From NCBI GenBank assembly GCA_008690995.1, contig VRMN01000001.1:1364001-1428000 (forward strand): 64,000 nt of DNA, read 5' to 3'. This stretch comes from Porphyridium purpureum. Taxonomy: Eukaryota. The position numbers were made by a program, and so were the translations under genes. Positions within the stretch are counted from its first letter, which is position 1. The number at the start of each line of letters is the position of its first letter. The notes beneath the pieces were generated by a model. The model worked only from the letters and a program-made list of their open reading frames with translations, did not search any database and had not been told where the DNA came from. Of this stretch, positions 2,729 to 64,000 are shown piece by piece.

Positions 2729-3381
2729 CCCGGTGTCCTTGCGTGAGAATTGCCGGGAGCAAACGCGGGAGTCGCCGGCTTTTGAAACGTGCTATTCTAT
2801 CGTTGTGGTTGCCCGAACCTGCGTTCTGTGAAGAAGTGCGTCGACGTCAGTCTTCCGTAGGCAACTGCGCTCTGTGACCGTCGCTCGTACTCCATGCTGA
2901 GGTTGCTGCTAGAGTCACTGAATGTGACGGAGGAATCGCGGACAGCGGACGCTCATGGCAGTCCCGCTCCCCGCCACAATGTGCGCCGAGGGAACAAGCC
3001 CACGCCCTCTGGCGCCCCAGCTCTTGCGCGCGTATGCCGTGCGCCATCCCGATCATCTTTCGCAGACGCGGTGGAAGCGCTGCATGCTTGACTTCCAGCG
3101 ATAGCGTGCCGAGCTCGCGCGGGCACAGACAGTGTAAAGCGCGGAGAGCTGTGTTTCGAGCGTGAGTGATAATCTCTAGACACCCGTTTACAGGCGATGC
3201 CAATGGAGCATCACAATCACCATCACCAAACCCCATTACTCCTGCAACGAAATCCGCGTCGTGAAGCGGCCTTCTGATATTCTCGGCTGCACCGGTACTC
3301 ACGAGCCGCTCCACGTCCGCACCAAAGCGCGCCAGCATATTTCTTTTCCTACACCAGCGAGTGCCGAGACGAAAATCCGGA

Positions 3382-4189
3382 CATGGATTAAAAGTGTTCC
3401 GGTCCGAGAGACGCCCTGGGTGTACACCCGGAGGTACGGCGTCTCGGAATTGTTTGAGGTACAGGGGCTTTTTCGCCCGCGTGGTTTTTTACCCTGTACC
3501 TCTGGTTTTGTGTATTGTTGTCTTTCGCCCCGAGGAGCCGGAGTCGCGTGTCCGAGGGAAGCAGGAGCCGCTTGGCGGCCGGCCGGCACCCATTGAGCCG
3601 CTTGCTGACGTGGCTGGCTGTGGCTTCGTTCTGTGGAACGAACGGAGGAAAGCCCAGCCTTTTGGGAGAAATAATTTCTCCCTTCCGCGTCAAGGACAGC
3701 AAGGACGGCGGGGTATATAATGGGCGCGGGCCTGTGCGGTTCCCCGGATTTTCTTTAGAGCGGAAGAAGAGAGGCAAGGGAGTAGGACACAGAGAATAAA
3801 AGAAGAGTTGTTCTTTGGTGTCGGGTGCCTGGGCGTGGTCGTCGGAAGGCGTGGGGCCTTTTGCTGAGCCTGTGTAGCAGAGCCAGCAGCACATCGTGTC
3901 TGGGGGGTTTCGGTGCTCTTAGAGCACTGAAGGCAGACGGCGGCTTTGTCCGTTACGACACCCTGCCCCTGTCGAGACCGGTGCTGTCTGTGCCGACGCG
4001 AAAGGCAATAGTAGAGGCCCTATACGTTGGATTTTCCACGCCCCGGGTATTCGTCGTCTGTGTTGTGTGCGTCGTGTGGTTGTGTTCTCTGTGCTGTGTG
4101 CGTCGTGTTGCTGGGGTTCGGTCATCTGAGAAGGGTTGTGTCATCCGGGTTCGTGCGCTTGTCATCATCAAGCGTGCGAGAATTTAAAG
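3382..4189 (+). repeat. 5' LTR of element 1 (808 bp)
   Basis: Direct repeat of 8574-9383; begins CATGGATT, ends AATTTAAAG; TATATAA at 3714-3720. Confidence 0.95.
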
Positions 4190-4201
4190 TGGTATCATCG
4201 C
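4190..4201 (+). promoter_or_regulatory. Primer-binding site of element 1
   Basis: TGGTATCATCGC directly abuts the LTR end; TGGTATCA is the usual tRNA-iMet-type PBS start; the same 12-mer occurs at 59800-59811. Confidence 0.85.
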
Positions 4202-4211
4202 ATCGGCGAAG

Positions 4212-5168
4212 ATGGATTCTGAGGGAATGGACGTGCAGGGCCTGCAGGGCGGCGCGTCGTGGATTGAAGCTTTCAACCAGCTTCATGCTCGTATCGGAGG
4301 ACAAGAAATGATGATTGTGCAGCTGCAGGAGGGAAACCGCCTCTTGCAGGAGATGCTGCAGAATGTGATGCATCAGGCATCTGTGTCAGCTGGTCCCGGC
4401 GAAACGGAAAGGACCGTTGCATCGCTGATTGGACGCAGCTTGAGAAAATACGACGGACAGCGCGACAAACTCGTTGTGAACGAGTGGTTGTCGAGGATGA
4501 AGCAAGACTTGGACATGTGCATGCCAGCTGGAGCGCTGGAGTCGCAGAAGGTGATCGTAGCGTCGCGCTTCTTTGAGAAGGATGCCGCGCTCCTGTGGGC
4601 AGCTCGCCCTGAGGAACAGAGGATGGCATTGGCCGAGTCCGGTTGGAATGCGTTCGCGAACTTCGTGCGGACGGCATTTGAGCCGCCGCAGGCATACCTG
4701 ACTGCTCGAACGAACTTGTATCAGCTGAAGCAGGGCAAGATGACTGTTGCTGAGTTTGAGCAGCGCCTGAGGATGGTGGCTCTATCCGTGGATAGTGTGA
4801 CGGATGCCGAGCTCAACACCATCTTCACTCTCGGCCTGAAGGAGAAGCTTCGCCTTGAGGTGGCGCGTCAGGACACGAAGACGCTGGAAGAGTCGCTGAG
4901 GGCGGCGTTGGCTGCGGAGCAGGTTGGTAGGTTTGGAGGAGACATGAGGGAGGCTTTTCATGGCGCCTCGAGTCCAAACTACCGGAACAGCTCGTCGTAT
5001 GCCGGGACGGCGCCAATGGATTTGGGCGTCGTGGAGAAACGCCAGCCGGAGAAGCGCAAGCGTGCGGACATGGGCAAAGTCAGATGCTACCATTGCGGGC
5101 AGCGCGGCCACATCAAACCCAATTGCCCAAAGCGGAATGGGCACTTGGCGGGAGGCCCGGAAAACTAA
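4212..5168 (+). CDS. gag: Retrotransposon Gag (capsid-like domain plus CCHC zinc knuckle)
   Basis: KYDG..EWL, LYQLKQGKMTVAEFEQR, PMDLG, and the knuckle CYHCGQRGHIKPNC. Confidence 0.93.
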   Translation: MDSEGMDVQGLQGGASWIEAFNQLHARIGGQEMMIVQLQEGNRLLQEMLQNVMHQASVSAGPGETERTVASLIGRSLRKYDGQRDKLVVNEWLSRMKQDLDMCMPAGALESQKVIVASRFFEKDAALLWAARPEEQRMALAESGWNAFANFVRTAFEPPQAYLTARTNLYQLKQGKMTVAEFEQRLRMVALSVDSVTDAELNTIFTLGLKEKLRLEVARQDTKTLEESLRAALAAEQVGRFGGDMREAFHGASSPNYRNSSSYAGTAPMDLGVVEKRQPEKRKRADMGKVRCYHCGQRGHIKPNCPKRNGHLAGGPEN

Positions 5169-8100
5169 AACCTCGAGGGAGAAGTTGGGAGGTGCACTCG
5201 AGGGGAACGGAACCTCCCGGGATGGGCTTTGTAGGTGAGGTCTGGCGCGCTGATGCGGCGTCGAGGTTGCTCTACAAGCGTGGAACTTTAGATGGCGAGT
5301 CTGTCCAATTTCTGGTGGACAGCGGAGCATCGCACAATTTTCTTGGATCTCGCTTTGTCGGCAGATTTGAAGGGCGCGAGAACGGAATGGTCAAGCTTGC
5401 GGGTGGGCAAAGTGTCTCAGTGCATGGCCCGGTGTTGCAGCATGTTGATCTTGGGTTCTGGAAAGGGCCGGTCAAGTTTTATGTCGGACCTCTGCAAATG
5501 GATGCAATTCTCGGGTGGGACTGGCTGAGTCGCGTGAACCCGAGGATTGATTGGCAGAGGGGTTCGATGGACTTGGAACTTGAAAATGTGGAAGATTGTG
5601 CGATGGTAAATGTCGTGGACGCTCTTTCCGAGTCAAGCGGAAATCAAGCGTACGATGGAGAAGAGGAGAGTGCCAGTGAAGAGGTCGAAGGAAAGATGGC
5701 CGGGATGGAACATGCGTTGACTCACATGCCGATGCGGGATGATTGTGAGACGTGTGTTGTGGCCAAGATCAAGAGCCGACCAGCAAGAAGGCTGGAGAAG
5801 GACTTGTCCACTTTGTCGTTCAATGACGAAGTTGGGATCGACCTGGTGGAGCCCGGACGTAACGTGGAAGCCATCGATGGAGCGAAGTACATGCTGACGC
5901 ACATCGATAGAGCGACGAGGTGGGCCACACTGGCAGGATTGAGAGCCAAAACGCATACGGCGGTTGCTGAAGCTTGGACAAGCGTGCAAGCCGGGCGAGG
6001 ATGGCCAAAGGTACTGAGGACAGATGATGGAAACGAGTTCAGGGGAAATGTGAGCAATTTGGTACGGGAGAATCTCGTGAAGCATGAGATTGGGGTCCCA
6101 CATAGACCGAATAGCCACGCTGAACAGGAACGTTTCCATCATACTTTGAATCAGGGGGTACGAGCAAATCTCCTGCAGTCTGGGCTGGGAAAGCGGTGGT
6201 TTTTGCATGCCGCTCAGCATTTCGTATTCATGTTCAATCGGCTGCACCCAGACAAGAAGTCTGGGAAGTCTCCGTATGAAATGAGGTACGGTGAGAGATG
6301 GAAGCGGGGGAAGGTAGCAGTACCATTTGGGTGCAAGGTGGTTTTCAAGAATGATCAACCGGAGAACAAGTATGCACCCAGAGGAAAGATTGGAGTCCTT
6401 GTTGGAGTTGCGGAGCATCCGCTGGCAATCTGGGTCCTTCCTCAGGAGGAGTGGACGAGTGCGGCACCGAAGCTGACTCGCACTCAGGACTTCAAGGCGT
6501 TCCCTGAAGTGTTTCCAATGCGGACTTTGGAAACAAGGGATGACGAGGAGGTCTCGGCACGTGAGGGTGAAATCGACTTTCACTCTAGGCAGGAAGAACC
6601 GGATAGTCAAGAGACTATGGTGTTGCCTACGAATACGGCCGAGGCGCGTGTATCCGGGAACTTGGAGGAGGATGTTCCCCTACCTATTGGAAGAAGGGGG
6701 AAACGAAAACCCAGGGTATCCTGGAGCCGGGAAGAGGATCAGGCCATCATGGATGGCTTACGGCTCTTTGGCTGGGGGAAGTGGGAAAGAACTCTGCAAG
6801 AATATAAGGCAGTGTTCCGCGATTCAAGAAACGGAAAGGATGTGCGAGCCCGGGCTCATAATATGGGCCTCTCGGAGGAAAATTGGAGGCAACGCGCAGG
6901 AGTTGCTCCAGAAACACCGCAATTGAACTTGACAACTTTGTTGCAGACGAGCCAAGCTCTGGCTTCTTCGGCTGGAAGAGAAGCCATGCAAAAAGAAGTG
7001 GACTTGATGATCCGATTCAAGGTATGGGATGAGCAACCTATTTCAAGGGAAGAAGCTCTCAAGGTCCCAGGCGCACGATTTGTGCGGACACACTTTATAT
7101 TCGGATTGAAGTTCGCTGAGCTTCCGGAGGAGTTTCGCAAGGTCAAGTGTCGGCTTGTTGCTGGTGGAAATAGGATTTGGGATGCCTCAGGGAAGGTCAC
7201 TCAGGATGTGTTTGACTATGAGGTGCCCGCGGGCCTGTCTGCGATCAGAATGCTGATAGCTTTGGCCGCTATCCTAGGATTGAAGATCGTATCGTTCGAT
7301 GTGACGTCGGCGTACTTACACGCTGACTTGTCAGGACCACCGACGTTTGCCATGTTGCCCCGACACGTTCCAGGAGGAGGTGATGGACTTGTCGTTCGCT
7401 TGAGGAGGGCGCTTTATGGCTTGCCAAGAAGCGGGTCTGACTTTTCCCAGGATGCCCGCAGAAGACTTCAAAAGTTCGGGTGGGATTTGATTCACGGCGA
7501 GAAGAACGTATACGTGAAAAAGATGGCGGGAAGTGCATCTGTTGCACTCCTAGCCTTGTATGTCGACGATGGTCTGCTCGCGTGTGTCGAGAAGGATCGG
7601 GGTGAGATATTTCGAGAGTTGAGGTCAGAGTTCCTCATTGAGAAGGAGCCGGAAGTCCTCTCGGAAGGAGCCCCGTTAAGGTTCCTAGGACTCACGATCT
7701 CGGAGTCGGCGACACGGTTTTCGTTGGGTCATGATCACTACCAAGCTTTGGTGGTGAAGGAATTCGAAGAAGAACTTGGGCAGGTGCTGCGAGCGGTGAA
7801 ATCACCAGGTGAGAAGATGAATGCTGACGCTGTATTGGATGTTCAAGTCGAACATGGACATCTGAAAATACGCGAGCATGTCGGGCGGCTGCTGTGGTTG
7901 GCCAGGACGGTCAGACCGGATATCTCCTATGCAGTTGGAGTGGTGGCTCGGTATGTGGATAGCTGGAACGTCGCAGCTGAGAGACTCCTGGTTCGCGTCA
8001 TGCAATACTTGAAGGTGCCTCGTGAGCCACTTGAGTATTTGCAGATGACGTCATTGAAGATCGGCGACGTAAGCGTCTTGGGCTATGCTGATGCCGACTT

Positions 8101-8583
8101 TGCTGGATGCCCGGAAACGCGCAAGTCAACGTCTGGGAGAGTGACGTACTTGGTCGCGGGTGGAAACAAGTATCTGGTCGATTGGAGCTCCAGAAGGCAA
8201 CGCTTTGTGAGCTCTTCGACCTCTGAGTCTGAGATGGCCGCTCTGGAAGAAGCGGTGCAGTTATCTTTGTTTCCGGCATTGTCGTTTCTTCGAAGCGTGC
8301 AAGAGGGGGATTATGCGTTGACCCTGCTTTGTGATAGTCAAGTTGTTCTCCGTGCGGTCGAGATGGGCTACTCGCCAAAGTTGCATCACATGGCAGTGAC
8401 CAGAGCCACGGACTTGGCGTGGATACACCAAGTTTGCGAGAAGCAAAAGCTGGTGAGATTGGAATATGTGAGGACGGGGAAAACGTGTCCGACTTGATGA
8501 CAAAACCTTTGTTTCCGGAAGGTCATATCAGGTGTTGGACTATGTTACGCGTCCCTCAGATCGGAAGGAGGAGCATGGATTAA
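5084..8583 (+). CDS. pol: Pol polyprotein PR-IN-(Myb)-RT-RNase H; 1-nt frameshift near 8476-8480 truncates the annotated ORF at 8497
   Basis: PR LVDSGASHNF; IN HHCC (HALTH..CETC) and D,D,E (GIDLVE, RTDDGNEF, AEQER); Copia-type RT (KCRLVAGG, DVTSAYLHADL, ALYGL, LYVDD, RPDISYAV); RNase H (YADADFAG..RKSTSG, STSESE). Restoring one base gives ..ENVSDLMTKPLFPEGHIRCWTMLRVPQIGRRSMD* ending at 8583, matching element 2. Confidence 0.93.
5159..5220 (+). promoter_or_regulatory. Predicted -1 programmed ribosomal frameshift signal (slippery heptamer plus H-type pseudoknot)
   Basis: G GAA AAC (5159-5165) sits just before the gag stop. 5-nt spacer; stem 1 CCTCGAG 5171-5177 / CTCGAGG 5197-5203; stem 2 GGGAGGT 5187-5193 / ACCTCCC 5212-5218. 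pol is in the -1 frame. Confidence 0.85.
8563..8573 (+). promoter_or_regulatory. Polypurine tract of element 1
   Basis: GGAAGGAGGAG immediately before the 3' LTR; identical at 62288-62298 in element 2. Confidence 0.9.
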
Positions 8584-9383
8584 AAGTGTTCCGGTCCGAG
8601 AGACGCCCTGGGTGTACACCCGGAGGTACGGCGTCTCGGAATTGTTTGAGGTACAGGGGCTTTTTCGCCCGCGTGGTTTTTTACCCTGTACCTCTGGTTT
8701 TGTGTATTGTTGTCTTTCGCCCCGAGGAGCCGGAGTCGCGTGTCCGAGGGAAGCAGGAGCCGCTTGGCGGCCGGCCGGCACCCATTGAGCCGCTTGCTGA
8801 CGTGGCTGGCTGTGGCTTCGTTCCGTGGAACGAACGGAGGAAAGCCCAGCCTTTTGGGAGAAATAATTTCTCCCTTCCGCGTCAAGGACAGCAAGGACGG
8901 CGGGGTATATAATGGGCGCGGGCCTGTGCGGTTCCCCGGATTTTCTTTAGAGCGGAAGAAGAAGAGGCAAGGGAGTAGGACACAGAGAATAAAAGGAAGA
9001 GTTGTTCTTTGGTGTCGGGTGCCTGGGCGTGGTCGTCGGAAGGCGTGGGGCCTTTTGCTGAGCCTGTGTAGCAGAGCCAGCAGCACATCGTGTCTGGGGG
9101 GTTTCGGTGCTCTTAGAGCACTGAAGGCAGACGGCGGCTTTGTCCGTTACGACACCCTGCCCCTGTCGAGACCGGTGCTGTCTGTGCCGACGCGAAAGGC
9201 AATAGTAGAGGCCCTATACGTTGGATTTTCCACGCCCCGGGTATTCGTCGTCTGTGTTGTGTGCGTCGTGTGGTTGTGTTCTCTGTGCTGTGTGCGTCGT
9301 GTTGCTGGGGTTCGGTCATCTGAGAAGGGTTGTGTCATCCGGGTTCGTGCGCTTGTCATCATCAAGCGTGCGAGAATTTAAAG
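8574..9383 (+). repeat. 3' LTR of element 1 (810 bp)
   Basis: By eye differs from the 5' LTR by one substitution and two 1-nt insertions; followed by TSD CCGGA. Confidence 0.95.
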
Positions 9384-10218
9384 CCGGATGCGCACTGTAC
9401 ACCCGTTGGTGTGTGTACCCTTAAACCGCGCGCATTTTTGTATGTGAGCGCGAAAGACAAAGTAACGCTTTCTACGGTGCGTGAGTGCGACGCCGTGGTT
9501 TAATTTTTCAAACTAAGCCACACGGGCGATGGACAAGCATGCGCGTGTCCGCGAAAACAGATGGAAAACAGAAGAAAAAATAAGGGAAAACCCCAAGAAG
9601 AACAAAAACCCCTGCTATGATCCGGGGAAGGGAAAAGCAAGAAAAAAGAGACACGGATCGATGAAAACCATGGTTGGTGAGAAGCTCCTGCCGCTCCTGC
9701 CGCTCCTGCCGCTCCAGTTGCTACAGTCGCAGTGCCGTTGGGTGTGGGTGTGGCTGTGGCTGTGGTGTTAGTACACGCGTGTCTGCGGCTAAAAGGGGGG
9801 AAGAGAATCACGCAGATGGCTCTATGCCCGCCGAGGGAATAGCAGCGTGTCCCCACCGATTTCTACCTCGTGCCAGCAGCTGGCTGTGCAGTGTGTGGAA
9901 GAACGAAGAACGCACACGCGATGCGCTTAGAGCAGGGGGGCGTTGGCCTACACCGTGCCTGCGGCTTCCCGCGTGTGCGATGGTTTACGCGCCCGTTCAG
10001 TCCGGTCTTGGTACACGAATTTGCGCGCGTGGACAGCACGCGTCCGGCATTGAAGAGGTCGCTCAGACGGTAAGTGGCATAAGAAGACGGACGGCGTGTC
10101 GGTGTTCGTCAGGTGCGGGGGACGCAGAGGAGAGTTGGGAACGGCAATAGTCAGGCTGGTGTGGCGGCACGTGCGCGGGAGTATCGAGGGTGGAGACAAA
10201 CGCATCCGATACCGAGCT

Positions 10219-59001: not shown

Positions 59002-59799
59002 CGTGGAATTTTAGGGTTCCGCCCCGAGAGACGCCGTAGGGTTTTGAGTACAAAACCCTAGAAAGTTCTATGATGAAAGATTGTTCGAGAAGCGTGATGA
59101 TCTCGGACCTGCGAAATGTTTGTCATTGTCGTTTTGTGTGGCCTTGTGCAAAGGTCAAAGGCCGGCCGAAGCTTCTGGATTCGTTCTTGACGCGCCCTCC
59201 CGGCCATTTTCCGGATACGTGGCCGGCTGTGGTTGCGAGTTGTGGAACGAATCAAAACCTGTGGTGGAAATTCGTCCTGTTGGAGAAATTTGTTCTCCCG
59301 TCCTTGCTGGAAAGAGCAAGGACGAAGGGTATAAAAGGACGAAGGGGCAAGCTGGTTCCCAGGAATTTCCAGGTCAAGGTAGAAGAAGAGGTAAGGGCAA
59401 ATAGAATAAAAAAGAGAATTGGTTAGTTGGATTGAGGCAGTCGTTGGAAGACTTGGGTTGGATTTGCGGGAGAGGCACGCTAGCGTGTTGTGCGAGCGGA
59501 TATCGGTCTGGAGTGTTTTTAAAAAGGCAGCTGGGGTTTAAACGTACCTTCCATCACCCTTCACTTGTCAAGACCGGTCCACTCCCTCTCGTAGTCCCCT
59601 ATAAGTTGAATTTTCTGTCCTCTCTTCCTTTCTAGCCACTTTTCTCTGATTGTCCCGCTTGTCCTTCCGTTCGTTTCGGTGTGTCGGTTCGTCGTCGGTT
59701 TGTCAGTTTCCGGGGTGTGGCGGTTTCCAGTTCCTGTTATCGGTGAAGCGGTCCGGTTTTGTTGATTCGGTTACAAAGCAGAAAGGGAGAAATTCCAAG
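59002..59799 (+). repeat. First LTR of element 2 (798 bp)
   Basis: Begins CGTGGAATT, ends AATTCCAAG, followed by TGGTATCATCGC; TATAAAA at 59330-59336. Confidence 0.9.
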
Positions 59800-59828
59800 T
59801 GGTATCATCGCCCGGTTGTTTGGAGAAA

Positions 59829-62311
59829 ATGGAAAGCCATGAAATGGAAATGAATGTCCCGCAGGAGAATGCGGCATGGATTGAGGCAGCTAATCAGCTG
59901 CATGCGCGCATTGCGGGACAGGAGATGATGATGGGAATGAGTTCAAGGGAGATGTGGGGAGACTGGTGCGTGAACACCTCATAAAGCACGAGGTGGGGAT
60001 TCCGTACAGGCCAAACAGTCACGCTGAACAGGAGCGGTTTCACCACACGCTGAATCAGGGAATCCGTGCGAATCTTGTGCAGGCCGGACTCGGGAAGCGT
60101 TGGTTCATGCACGCCGCGCAGCATTTTGCGTTCATGACGAATAGACTTCACGTGGGCAGGAAGTCTGGAAAGACGCCGTTTGAATTACGACATGGTGAAA
60201 AATGGTCGCCGAGAAATCTTAGTTTGCCATTCGGGTGCAAGGTGGTCTACAAAGATGATCAGCCTGACAATAAGTATGCACCGCGAGGAAAAGTTGGCAT
60301 TCTCGTCGGCGTTGGAGAGCATCCGATGGCACTTTTGGTGCTTCCTCGGGATGACTGGACGAGTGAGACCCCAAAAGTAATTCGCACTCAGGATTTTAAG
60401 GCATTTACCCATGAGTTCCCTTTAAAAGGAATTGAACGAGAGATGGTGAGCCTTAGCCAGCAGGAAGAGTTGCCAGAAGTGGACGAACCATCCGCGGTTG
60501 AAGCGGTGCAGGACTTGGATCGTCGTATCGATGCTCTCAGAACTAGAGAAGCGGAGCTTGAGAAAGAGATCGAGGCATTGAAAGTGAGGGTGGTTGACGA
60601 AGAACGGGCAGCAGGCACGGGTGGTCCAGTGGCGATCCCACAGTTGAACTTGACGACTTTGCTGAAAACTGGAGCGGCGTTGGCGTCTGAGCAAGGACGA
60701 GCCGCGATGGAAAAAGAAGTCAAATCCATGCTGAAATTTGGGGTATGGGATGAGAGTCCCTTGACGCTGGAGGAGGCCCGGAGGCAACCTGGTGCTCGTT
60801 TCGTACGCACACATTTCATTTTCGGTCTGAAATTTGCTGAGATGCCGGAAGAATTTCGCAAGGTGAAGTGCCGCTTGGTGGCCGGGGGAAACAGGATATG
60901 GGGGTCCGATGGAGCTGCGACGAATGACATTTTTGATTATGAGACGCCTGCTGGTTTGTCAGCTATCCGAATGATAATAGCTGTGGCTGCAATTCTGGGC
61001 CTTCAGATTGTTAGCTTCGACATCAGTTCGGCATACCTCCATGCGGACCTGTCTGGGCCACCTACGTTTGCATATTTACCGCGTGAAATTTGTGATTCAA
61101 AAGGCACAGTAGTCAGGCTGAGAAAGGCGCTGTATGGCTTGCCCAGGAGCGGCTCGGATTTCTCACAAGATGCTCGGAGGAGATTGCAAAAGTTCCAGTG
61201 GAAGCTCGTGCATGGTGAAAAGAATGTGTACGTCCGGAGAAATGCTGCAAGTTCGTCAGTTGCATTGCTGGCTCTGTACGTGGATGATGGTCTATTAGCC
61301 TGTCGAGAGGAGGAACGCCCAGGAATCATCGAAGAATTGAAACAAGAGTTTCTCATGGAAAAAGCACCAGAACTATTGACGGAAGGGGGATCCTTGAGAT
61401 TCCTGGGGACGAGCATTTCCCTCAAAAATGGGAGCGTGAGTTTGGCGAATCAAGAGTATCAAGATGTGGTCGTTCGGGAATTTGAGCAGGATATTAGACG
61501 CGTATTGCGTGCCGTGAAGTCACCATCTGAGAAGCTAGATGGCGAGGAAGTTCTGAATTATCAAGTCATCTGGAAGACTTTGAAAGTAAGAGAACACGTC
61601 GGGAGGCTGATGTGGCTCGCCAGAACGGTTCGACCTGACATTGCGTATGCAGTCGGTATGATTGCCCGGTACGTTGACAAGTGGAATATGGCAGCAGAAA
61701 GGCTGCTCGTACGAGTCGTGCAGTATTTGAAAACACCTCGGGAAGCATTGGAGTATCACGTGTTGGGGAATCTCAAGGAAGGCATCAGAGGGGTGAACAT
61801 TGTTGGATACACGGATGCTGACTTTGCTGGTTGTCCAGAGAGTCGTGTGTCGACTTCTGGAAGAGCAACGTACTTAGTTGCTGGAGATTACAAGTACCTA
61901 GTGGATTGGTCTTCAAGAAAGAAGCGTTTCGTGAGCTCGTCGACTTCAGAGTCGGAGCTGGCCGCCCTAGAGGAAACTGTGCAACTCTCGTTGTTTCCTG
62001 CATTGTCTTTCTTGCGAAGTATACGTGACGGAGAGTTCTCGGTGATTTTGATGTGTGACAATCAAGCTGTGATGCGAGTAATAGAGATGGGGTACTCGCC
62101 AAAGTTGCATCATATGGCGATAACCCGAGCAACAGATTTGGCCTGGTTGCATCAGGTGTGCGAAAAGCAGAAACTTGTGAAACTGGTATTTGTGAAGACG
62201 GACGAAAATGTGGCGGACTTAATGACCAAGGCCTTATTTCCGGAGGGCCACATTAAGTGCTGGGAGAAGTTACGCGTCCCTCAGACCGGAAGGAGGAGCG
62301 TGGAATTTTAG
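59829..62311 (+). pseudogene. pol: gag N-terminal stub fused out of frame to a 5'-truncated pol (half IN, coiled coil, intact RT-RNase H)
   Basis: WIEAANQLHARIAGQEMM (gag) joins DDGNEFKG (integrase) at 59924-59933; ORF 59954-62311 aligns with element 1 Pol. Confidence 0.9.
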
Positions 62312-63077
62312 GGTTCCGCCCCGAGAGACGCCGTAGGGTTTTGAGTACAAAACCCTAGAAAGTTCTATGATGAAAGATTGTTCGAGAAGCGTGATGATCT
62401 CGGACCTGTGAAATGTTTGTCATTGTCGTTTTGTGTGGCCTTGTGCAAAGGTCAAAGGCCGGCCGAAGCTTCTGGATTCGTTCTTGACGCGCCCTCCCGG
62501 CCATTTTCCGGATACGTGGCCGGCTGTGGTTGCGAGTTGTGGAACGAATCAAAACCTGTGGTGGAAATTCGTCCTGTTGGGAAATTTGAATTCTCCGTCC
62601 CGCTGGAAAGAGCAAGGACGAAGGGTATAAAAGGACGAAGGCGTTGGTTCCCAGGAACTGCGTCAAGGGGTAGAAGAAGAGGGGCAAGAAATAAAAAGAG
62701 AATTCAATAGCTAATTGAGCATTAGCCGGAAGACTTGGGTTGGATTTCAGGAGAGGCACGCGAAGCGTGCTGTGCGAGCGGGATATCGGTCTGGAGCGTT
62801 TTTAAAAAAGGCAGCTAATTTAAACAAAACCTTCCATCACCCTTCACTCTAATAAGACCGGTCCACTCTCCTCGTAGTCCCCTATAAGCTGGAATTTTCT
62901 TGTCCCTCTTCTAGCCACCTCTTTCTGATTGTCCCGCTTGTCCTTCCGTTCGCTCTCGGTGTGTCGGTTCGCCGTCGGCCTTGTCAGTTCTGGGTGCGGC
63001 GGCTCTCAGTCCTGCTATCGGTGAAGCGGTCCGGCTCTTTTGCTGATCTGGTTACAAAGCAGAAAGGGAGAAATCGC
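62299..63077 (+). repeat. Second (shared) LTR of element 2; 3' end and PBS degraded
   Basis: Repeat of 59002-59799: near identical for about 280 bp, then many small indels. Confidence 0.85.
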
Positions 63078-64000
63078 GGTAATTACCGCCCGGTTGTTTG
63101 AGAAAATGGAAAGCCATGAAATGAGGCACGAATGTCCCAGTAGTGAGGAAAATGCGGTGATGGATTAGGCAGCTAATCAGCTGCATGCGCGCATTGCGGG
63201 ACAGGAGATGATGATGGGAAATGAGTCTGCTGGAGATGGGGAGATTCGGAGAGGCAGAACACCTCATAAAGCACGAGGTGGGGATTCCGTACAGGCCAAA
63301 CAGTCATGCTGAACAGCAGCGGTTTCACCACACGCTGAATCAGGGAATCCGTGCGAATCTTGTGCAGGCCGGACTCGGGAAGCGTTGGTTCATGCACGCC
63401 GCGCAGCATTTTGCGTTCATGACGAATAGACTTCACGTGGGCAGGAAGTCTGGAAAGACGCCGTTTGAATTACGACATGGTGAAAAATGGTCGCCGAGAA
63501 ATCTTAGTTTGCCATTCGGGTGCAAGGTGGTCTACAAAGATGATCAGCCTGACAATAAGTATGCACCGCGAGGAAAAGTTGGCATTCTCGTCGGCGTTGG
63601 AGAGCATCCGATGGCAATTTTGGTGCTTCCTCGGGATGACTGGACGAGTGAGACCCCAAAAGTAATTCGCACTCAGGATTTTAAGGCATTTACCCATGAG
63701 TTCCCTTTAAAGGGAATTGAACGAGAGATGGTGAGCCTGAGCCAGCAGGAAGAGTTGCCAGAAGTGGACGAACCATCCGCGGTTGAAGCGGTGCAGGACT
63801 TGGATCGTCGTATCGATGCTCTCAGAGCTAGAGAAGCGGAGCTTGAGAAAGAGATCGAGGCATTGAAAGTGAGAGTGGTTGACGAAGAACGGGCAGCAGG
63901 CACGGGTGGTCCAGTGACGATCCCACAGTTGAACTTAACGACTTTGCTGAAAACTGGAGCGGCGTTGGCGTCTGAGCAAGGACGAGCCGCGATGGAAAAA
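63078..64000 (+). pseudogene. Second copy of the deleted internal region (partial)
   Basis: Repeats about 59810-60714, including the same gag/IN junction. Confidence 0.88.

What the first reader, a model, noticed from the sequence alone, without database searches (positions are those of the whole stretch)
6701..6868. TRF/telobox-like Myb domain at the integrase C-terminus
KRKPRVSWSREEDQAIMDGLRLFGWGKWERTLQEYKAVFRDSRNGKDVRARAHNM fits the single-repeat Myb/SANT pattern of TRF1/TRF2 and plant TRB proteins (W..EED..L..G...G.G.W..I......F..R....K.RW). The recognition helix is diverged (VRARA for LKDRW). It is in frame between the IN core and the conserved PQLN-LTTLL junction before RT, the position where chromoviruses carry a chromodomain and Ty5 its Sir4-binding motif. 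Inference: a captured DNA- or chromatin-binding module that targets integration.
Basis: partly seen in the sequence, partly recalled or inferred. Interest (0 to 1): 0.9.

Follow-up and report, generated by a model that had tools for sequence, protein, structure and literature searches.

The report
Myb-guided Copia integrase in red alga
A jumping gene of a single-celled red alga carries a Myb-type domain just behind its integrase, and the few insertion sites read here lie at one fixed distance from the same short DNA word, so the domain likely reads that word to aim insertion, which would be a new way for this kind of element to choose where it lands.

Summary
Confirmed: 6701-6868 encodes a Myb-family domain (Pfam PF00249, 30.2 bits, cut-off 24.4) in frame between integrase and RT of a young, full-length Copia-order LTR element of Porphyridium purpureum. 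It is intact in 12 of 15 annotated copies that reach the region. The sister family (62% identical) has a coiled coil in the same slot; the four nearest outside relatives have a Cys/His finger. It is not a telobox: helix 3 (RNGKDVRARAHN) resembles B-Myb repeat 2, and no flank is telomeric. New: 5 of 5 single-sequence 3' flanks of this LTR type carry A-C/T-C/T-G-T at exactly +11 to +15 from the LTR end (0 of 200,000 random sets reach this); 0 of 2 5' flanks do; two pooled rows fit only partly. Best reading: the Myb binds ACYGTA and places the intasome one helical turn away. The link is untested, because no sister-family 3' flank was available, selection tests lack power and the fold models are weak. 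The element also has Ty3-like gag and protease and unusual C...AG ends. No such element turned up in ten literature searches.

The parts
3377..3381 (+). 5' copy of the 5-bp target-site duplication CCGGA
3382..4189 (+). 5' LTR of family A, starts CATGG and ends TTTAAAG (not TG...CA)
   Evidence: 99.6% identical to the 3' LTR
4190..4201 (+). primer-binding site abutting the LTR (initiator-tRNA type recalled, not tested)
4212..5168 (+). gag, Ty3/Gypsy-like capsid plus CCHC knuckle
   Evidence: PF03732 41.9 bits, PF19259 34.1, PF00098 23.1, all above cut-off
5159..5165 (+). GGAAAAC heptamer before the gag stop; likely -1 frameshift site into pol (inferred)
   Evidence: frames, sequence
5222..8497 (+). 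pol in Copia order: protease (DSG 5312-5335), integrase, RT (YVDD 7556-7573), RNase H (from 8081); one-base frameshift near 8475 in this copy
   Evidence: contigs of 3 of 4 runs lack the frameshift (table 4)
5711..6493 (+). integrase: short HHCC finger, D,D,E core, SH3-like C-terminal part
6512..6688 (+). acidic linker, 59 residues, net charge -11
6701..6868 (+). single Myb repeat with basic arm; with the 4 residues before it net charge +8; helix 3 at 6827-6862
6917..6943 (+). PQLNLTTLL, shared with family B; likely integrase/RT boundary (cleavage site inferred)
8563..8573 (+). polypurine tract abutting the 3' LTR
8574..9383 (+). 3' LTR of family A
9384..9388 (+). 3' copy of the target-site duplication
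9394..9399 (+). ACTGTA, candidate target motif at +11 to +16 from the LTR end
   Evidence: (table 7)
59002..63074 (+). sister family B, first unit of a tandem array (LTRs 59002-59799 and 62299-63074), internally deleted from gag into integrase; natural Myb-less comparison
60506..60595 (+). coiled-coil-like segment of family B in the slot where A has the Myb
   Evidence: (weak coiled-coil family hits only)

Best explanation
The segment is a Myb-family repeat fixed in the integrase-RT slot of a young Porphyridium Copia family, and it likely stays on the integrase tail and likely binds the DNA word ACYGTA, which would place insertion at the fixed one-sided distance seen in the flanks. Shown: the domain, its place, its presence across copies, the swap of modules in this slot among relatives, and the flank motif at +11 to +15. 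Inferred: protease cleavage near PQLN leaves the Myb on integrase; the basic arm and R2-like helix 3 read DNA; one protomer's Myb on the 59-residue linker binds about 10 bp (one helical turn) from the centre of the 5-bp cut; unlike LTR ends give the orientation bias; the module was captured long ago from a host Myb gene and replaced an older Cys/His finger.
For: Pfam above cut-off. Intact in 12 of 15 family A copies whose models reach the region, one of the 12 being this locus; absent from 16 of 16 family B models that cover the slot. The 4 nearest outside relatives form one RT clade with A and B (support 0.999) and are the only 4 of 227 sequences with a Cys/His finger pattern in the slot. Two Copia proteins carry a chromodomain there. 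Helix 3 keeps the equivalents of c-Myb Lys128, Arg131 and Asn136 (alignment; roles of Lys128 and Asn136 from PMC3203581 passages), and arm plus domain is basic, +8. Flank motif in 5 of 5 single-sequence 3' flanks (window plus 4 loose ends, table 7); null 0 of 200,000, also 0 of 200,000 when the flank aligned by eye is dropped. No close present-day donor among 10 word-sharing candidates, which argues against a fresh capture.
Against: No 3' flank of the Myb-less family B was obtained, so the motif may come from the integrase core or a host factor. The 4 contig flanks belong to A-type LTR ends whose internal regions were not seen. The motif was defined after the fact from 5 flanks. 32 loose-end rows were not shown. 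Two pooled rows fit only partly: 3 contigs give ACCGA at +11 to +15, and 2 contigs give a motif shifted by one base. The third core aromatic is Ala and the c-Myb Glu132 equivalent is Ala. Within the domain 3 non-synonymous against 3 synonymous variants and 3 of 56 variable residues (5.4%; enzymes 4.1-6.1%, linkers 9.5-14.3%) are compatible with constraint but too few to show it. Both models are single-sequence (pLDDT 50 and 73), and no fold match is significant.
Confidence: 0.5

Rival explanations
1. The flank motif is set by the integrase core/SH3 part or by a host DNA-binding protein that tethers the intasome. The Myb does another job: chromatin or protein binding as in SANT domains, non-specific DNA or cDNA binding, or nuclear import through its basic arm.
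For: A and B integrases are 70% identical over the compared part, and B thrives without a Myb (16 models). Weak hit to the CHD1 HTH family (E 0.0065). Ty3's chromodomain works by contacts with TFIIIB and target DNA (bioRxiv 2021.07.27.453949, passages). ACTGTA is about 2.9 times denser outside long ORFs (15 against 12 hits), as a host promoter word might be.
Against: Basic charge and retained base-reading residues of helix 3. Integrase-core preferences are normally symmetric and centred on the duplication (recalled), whereas this motif is one-sided and 6-10 bp outside it.
Confidence: 0.32
2. The domain is a passenger, captured by template switching in the ancestor of a very young family and tolerated in a permissive linker.
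For: Copies are about 98% identical, so fixation alone shows little. The slot varies freely in length and content. Core Trp3 is lost. All 9 listed variants in 6465-7250 fall in or beside the Myb. The codon-usage test was inconclusive.
Against: No near-identical host donor (weak search, proteins of 131-2000 residues only). Frame and Myb signature are intact. The three changes lie off the core positions. Relatives keep structured modules in the slot.
Confidence: 0.1
3. A TRF-like telobox that directs the element to telomeric or telo-box repeats.
For: TRF1 is the best or tied-best sequence hit and first among weak Foldseek rows. One 5' flank contains TAGGGTTA.
Against: Helix 3 lacks the TRF-type D-R-W-R. 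This copy lies between genes 3.4 kb into a gene-dense window with 1 TTAGGG in its host part. No flank is a repeat array. Telomere type unresolved in this alga (PMC3622300, passages).
Confidence: 0.04
4. The Myb ends up on RT or as a free peptide and acts on the element's own LTR DNA, for example in cDNA end holding or autoregulation.
For: The cleavage site was not determined. The LTR ends are atypical.
Against: The PQLN boundary shared with B lies downstream of the Myb. This reading does not explain the flank motif.
Confidence: 0.04

Closest known systems
Chromodomain-bearing integrases (chromoviruses; Copia clade CoDi-A of diatoms)
   Same: Extra module at the integrase C-terminus; CoDi-A shows it occurs in Copia (PMC2774666, passages), as do P0111 and P0119.
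   Different: A chromodomain reads histone marks or partner proteins; here the module is a Myb repeat and a DNA word sits at a fixed offset.
Ty3, Ty1 and Ty5 of yeast
   Same: Targeting through the integrase C-terminus; Ty3 position is fixed to a few bases (bioRxiv 2021.07.27.453949, passages; Ty1 and Ty5 recalled).
   Different: They tether to host proteins (TFIIIB, Pol III, Sir4); none carries a captured sequence-specific DNA-binding domain (recalled).
R2 and TRAS non-LTR retrotransposons
   Same: Myb or Myb-like domain in a site-specific retroelement (recalled; no call confirmed it). An engineered TRF1 Myb fused to the TRAS1 nuclease confers TTAGGG specificity (PMC2868851, passages).
   Different: They insert by target-primed reverse transcription; this element has LTRs and a DDE integrase.
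TRF1/TRF2 telobox and c-Myb/B-Myb repeats
   Same: Arm and helices 1-2 resemble TRF1; helix 3 resembles B-Myb repeat 2.
   Different: Single repeat, third Trp replaced by Ala, neither the TRF helix-3 signature nor a second repeat.
Metagenomic Copia relatives P0036, P0037, P0039, L001
   Same: Same RT clade, same short HHCC spacing, structured module in the same slot.
   Different: Cys/His finger instead of Myb; no Ty3-type gag hit in the three scanned; about 32% identical for P0036 and P0037.

Membership tests
Myb/SANT repeat (PF00249) | Profile score above the curated cut-off | tested here: met
   30.2 bits against 24.4 alone; 23.6 within whole pol
Myb/SANT repeat (PF00249) | Three regularly spaced core aromatics | tested here: not met
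   W501 and W521 present, third position Ala; some Myb subclasses share this loss (recalled)
Myb/SANT repeat (PF00249) | Three-helix helix-turn-helix fold | tested here: inconclusive
   Helices fall at the expected places. Top 9 Foldseek rows are Myb family but E 0.34 or worse, and Foldseek uses sequence too; best VIA Z 3.7
TRF/telobox subfamily | TRF-type helix 3 (K-D-R/K-W-R) | tested here: not met
   K-D-V-R-A-R-A-H-N; TRF1 alignments end before the RW
TRF/telobox subfamily | Binds telomeric repeat DNA | not testable with these tools
   Indirectly, none of 7 single-sequence flanks read is a repeat array
SHAQKYF-class Myb (TIGR01557) | Profile cut-off and helix-3 motif | tested here: not met
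   14.3 bits against 29.3, first 26 positions only
R2R3 Myb | Two tandem repeats | tested here: not met
   One repeat only
R2R3 Myb | Repeat-2 base-reading residues Lys128, Glu132, Asn136 | tested here: inconclusive
   2 of 3 kept, Glu132 is Ala; helices 2-3 alone retrieve no Myb
Ty1/Copia LTR retrotransposon | pol order PR-IN-RT-RH with RVT_2-type RT | tested here: met
   RVT_2 62.1 bits; order
Ty1/Copia LTR retrotransposon | LTR pair, PBS, PPT, 5-bp duplication | tested here: met
Ty1/Copia LTR retrotransposon | TG...CA termini | tested here: not met
   CATGG...TAAAG; the duplication fits only these ends, and other flanks agree
Ty1/Copia LTR retrotransposon | Copia-type gag and protease (PF14223, PF22936) | tested here: not met
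   Hits are PF03732, PF19259, PF13650 instead; ordinary Copia controls hit PF14223
Chromovirus (Ty3/Gypsy) | RT-RH-IN order and chromodomain | tested here: not met
Sequence-specific integrating element | Conserved target motif at fixed offset | tested here: met
   5 of 5 single 3' flanks, null 0 of 200,000; small sample, pooled rows partial
Sequence-specific integrating element | Specificity caused by the Myb domain | not testable with these tools
   No family B 3' flank

The most novel reading that the evidence does not exclude
An LTR retrotransposon that captured a sequence-specific Myb DNA-binding domain onto its DDE integrase and so inserts at a fixed, one-sided distance from a 6-bp word: a natural DNA-guided integrase fusion, in a Copia/Ty3 chimera that joins untrimmed cDNA ends and belongs to a clade that swaps aiming modules (finger, coiled coil, Myb) in one slot.
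Probability: 0.45. Interest if true: 0.88.

Novelty: new variant of a known kind. Interest (0 to 1): 0.74.

Why it matters
Known targeting by LTR elements works mostly through tethering to host proteins or chromatin marks (partly recalled). A transcription-factor-type DNA-binding domain on integrase that fixes site and orientation would add a third route, and would show how a mobile element spares genes in a gene-dense genome. Families A and B share a host and 62% of pol but differ in this slot, so the question can be settled from the existing assembly by comparing their flanks. A modular slot that sets integrase specificity is also of interest for site-directed gene insertion in algae.

Tried and rejected
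No whole genome was held, so genome-wide flank mapping was impossible. The full HMMER search of protein representatives never ran (queue full, 10 tries), so the nearest Myb relatives, the donor, and any distant Myb-bearing retroelements remain unsearched by a sensitive method. The precomputed Pfam lists show no Myb in 120 listed of 160 hits, but they also miss it in P0001, so that absence says little. A direct scan of the integrase-plus-slot region of 64 of 77 metagenome loci found 0 Myb at E 0.01 (many lack even an integrase hit). phmmer with the domain over all fetched proteins, loci and the window hit family A only, next best E 0.47. The 89-residue model (pLDDT 50) gave 0 Foldseek matches and only unrelated VIA rows. 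Codon usage of the domain lay between host and element (LLR -0.5; host mean -2.95, family B mean 1.65; 33 of 187 host windows score as high). LTR-end patterns found nothing in viral or prokaryote contigs, and no relative was found in viral contigs. Gag and protease gave no informative solved-structure hits. Contig depths were not used as copy number. Contigs from one RNA library span the Myb, which does not prove transcription. The Cys/His finger could not be looked up in the Atlas. Earlier scan notes: none. Considered and rejected: assembly artefact; a nested host Myb gene (in frame, no separate ORF, shared by copies); a TG start of the LTR (the duplication fails).

Full report
Observation. 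The quoted 56 residues are encoded at 6701-6868 on the + strand, in frame inside the pol ORF 4931-8497. Alone they score 30.2 bits against Pfam Myb_DNA-binding (cut-off 24.4); inside the whole pol they score 23.6. The best solved-structure hits by sequence are TRF1, B-Myb and c-Myb, and the Atlas's top four clusters are Myb (0.85; a lead). Single contigs span 6465-7250 in 3 of 4 runs and overlapping contigs in the fourth, with no gap or joint. The segment is real.

The element. Database names identify the host as Porphyridium purpureum. The element spans 3382-9383, with LTRs 99.6% identical, a perfect 5-bp duplication CCGGA, and PBS and PPT abutting the LTRs. Gag hits Ty3-type families (PF03732, PF19259) and the protease PF13650, while integrase, RT (RVT_2) and RNase H are in Copia order. 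Pol is in the -1 frame to gag, behind GGAAAAC (frameshifting inferred). This copy has a one-base frameshift near 8475 that contigs of 3 of 4 runs lack.

Distribution. I saw 35 of 38 cluster members. Of 15 family A copies whose gene models reach the slot, 12 have the whole Myb, one of them being this locus. One copy is split there into two models (P0013, P0003), and two (P0014, P0021) lack its first half in a way that fits an intron called by the gene finder (my inference). A sister family B, also in the window at 59002 onward, is 62% identical in pol, differs at 85 of 121 four-fold sites in RT-RNase H (saturated), and has an unrelated coiled-coil-like segment in the slot in 16 of 16 models that cover it. 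A and B group with P0036, P0037, P0039 and L001 (FastTree support 0.999; the query plus the 75 best-scoring of about 130 usable RT segments, midpoint root). These four, and no other of 227 sequences, carry a Cys/His finger pattern in the slot (pattern drawn from these sequences). Two ordinary Copia proteins have a chromodomain there. No Myb was found in 64 scanned of 77 metagenome loci, nor in any fetched sequence outside family A. The slot takes exchangeable modules, and the Myb is particular to family A so far.

Which Myb. The arm and helices 1-2 align with TRF1, but those alignments end before the RW of helix 3. Helix 3, RNGKDVRARAHN, matches B-Myb repeat 2, RLGKQCRERWHN, at 7 of 12 positions. 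By that register the c-Myb Lys128 and Asn136 equivalents are kept and Glu132 is lost (roles from PMC3203581, passages); the third Trp is Ala. Helices 2-3 alone retrieve no Myb, so this is suggestive only. The SHAQKYF class is not met. Arm plus domain has net charge +8 behind a linker of -11. Single-sequence models reached pLDDT 50 and 73; for the second, the top 9 Foldseek rows are Myb family, none significant.

Age and selection. A word-based search found no donor: 10 candidates, 2 hits, both family A (weak). Inside the domain there are 3 non-synonymous and 3 synonymous variants. Variable residues among 11 other copies make 5.4% in the Myb, 4.1-6.1% in the enzymes and 9.5-14.3% in the linkers. 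This fits constraint but does not show it. Codon usage was uninformative.

Target sites. Counting from the first base after the LTR end, this copy has ACTGTA at +11 to +16 (9394-9399). The four single-contig loose ends at A-type LTR 3' ends (table 7) give ACTGTA, ACTGTA, ACCGTA and ATTGT (cut off; diverged LTR end aligned by eye) at the same offset, all in different flanks. The summed majority over five columns is 23 of 25; 0 of 200,000 sets of random non-coding window sequence reached this at any offset (maximum 21), and 0 of 200,000 did so with the fifth flank dropped. Both 5' flanks available lack the motif at the mirror position. Against: two pooled rows fit only partly (3 contigs: ACCGA; 2 contigs: shifted by one), 32 loose-end rows were not shown, the internal parts of those four elements were not seen, and no family B 3' flank was available. 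No flank is telomeric, and human-type and Cyanidioschyzon-type telomere probes gave no signal in this alga (PMC3622300, passages).

Mechanism. Most likely (0.5), integrase keeps the Myb after cleavage near PQLN, and one protomer's Myb binds ACYGTA about 10 bp from the centre of the staggered cut, fixing site and orientation. The main rival (0.32) is that the core or a host factor sets the motif and the Myb binds chromatin, protein or DNA without specificity. A passenger (0.1), telomere targeting (0.04) and a role on RT or LTR DNA (0.04) are less likely.

Termini. The duplication fits only if the element runs CATGG...TAAAG; family B reads CG-TGGA...TTCCA-AG, that is TG...CA plus two bases at each end. 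The simplest reading, inferred, is joining without the two-base trimming.

Literature. Ten searches listed no paper on a Myb-bearing LTR integrase; I saw listings and abstract starts, not all matching papers were listed, and most subscription journals, Repbase and GyDB are not covered. Passages read: PMC2774666 (chromodomain in CoDi-A Copia, no 'myb'), PMC3248453 (no 'myb'), PMC9289625 (no domain gain seen in plant Copia, no 'myb'), bioRxiv 2021.07.27.453949 (Ty3 chromodomain), PMC2868851 (engineered Myb-nuclease), PMC6746865 (not used). Myb domains in R2 and TRAS, and Ty1/Ty5 targeting, are recalled.

Verdict. Observation confirmed, telobox label not supported, targeting now backed by a small but sharp flank signal whose cause is untested. 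New variant of a known kind; interest 0.74.

Noticed in passing
L001:608-6588 and protein P0037: Two Copia relatives, 60-68% identical to each other, have a permuted pol: protease, RT thumb plus RNase H, integrase, then RT palm ending about 20 residues after YVDD. L001 has partial terminal direct repeats.
   Followed up: partly
P0036 835-874, P0037 972-1018, P0039 750-788, L001 ORF1 from 1612: A Cys/His finger (CxxC...CxxC...H...C...RC) with no Pfam match in the three scanned fills the integrase-RT slot of this clade.
   Followed up: partly
window 3382-4189, 8574-9383, 59002-59799: LTR ends carry two extra bases outside the TG...CA position, and family A has lost the 3' CA; suggests integration without 3' trimming.
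   Followed up: partly
window 4212-5620: Ty3/Gypsy-type gag and protease joined to Copia integrase, RT and RNase H, with pol in the -1 frame: a likely chimera between superfamilies.
   Followed up: partly
window 59002-64000: Family B forms a tandem array of internally deleted units sharing LTRs; the two full LTRs are only 88% alike. It sits about 350 bases upstream of what looks like a small heat-shock gene (recognised by eye).
   Followed up: no
window 8402-8599 joined to 9235 (table 5): Contigs in 2 of 4 runs show a derivative with a short LTR (about 635 bases missing), 93% like family A at the pol end; possibly a non-autonomous partner.
   Followed up: no
P0111 945-994, P0119 965-1014: Metagenomic Copia polyproteins with a chromodomain between integrase and RT.
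   Followed up: no
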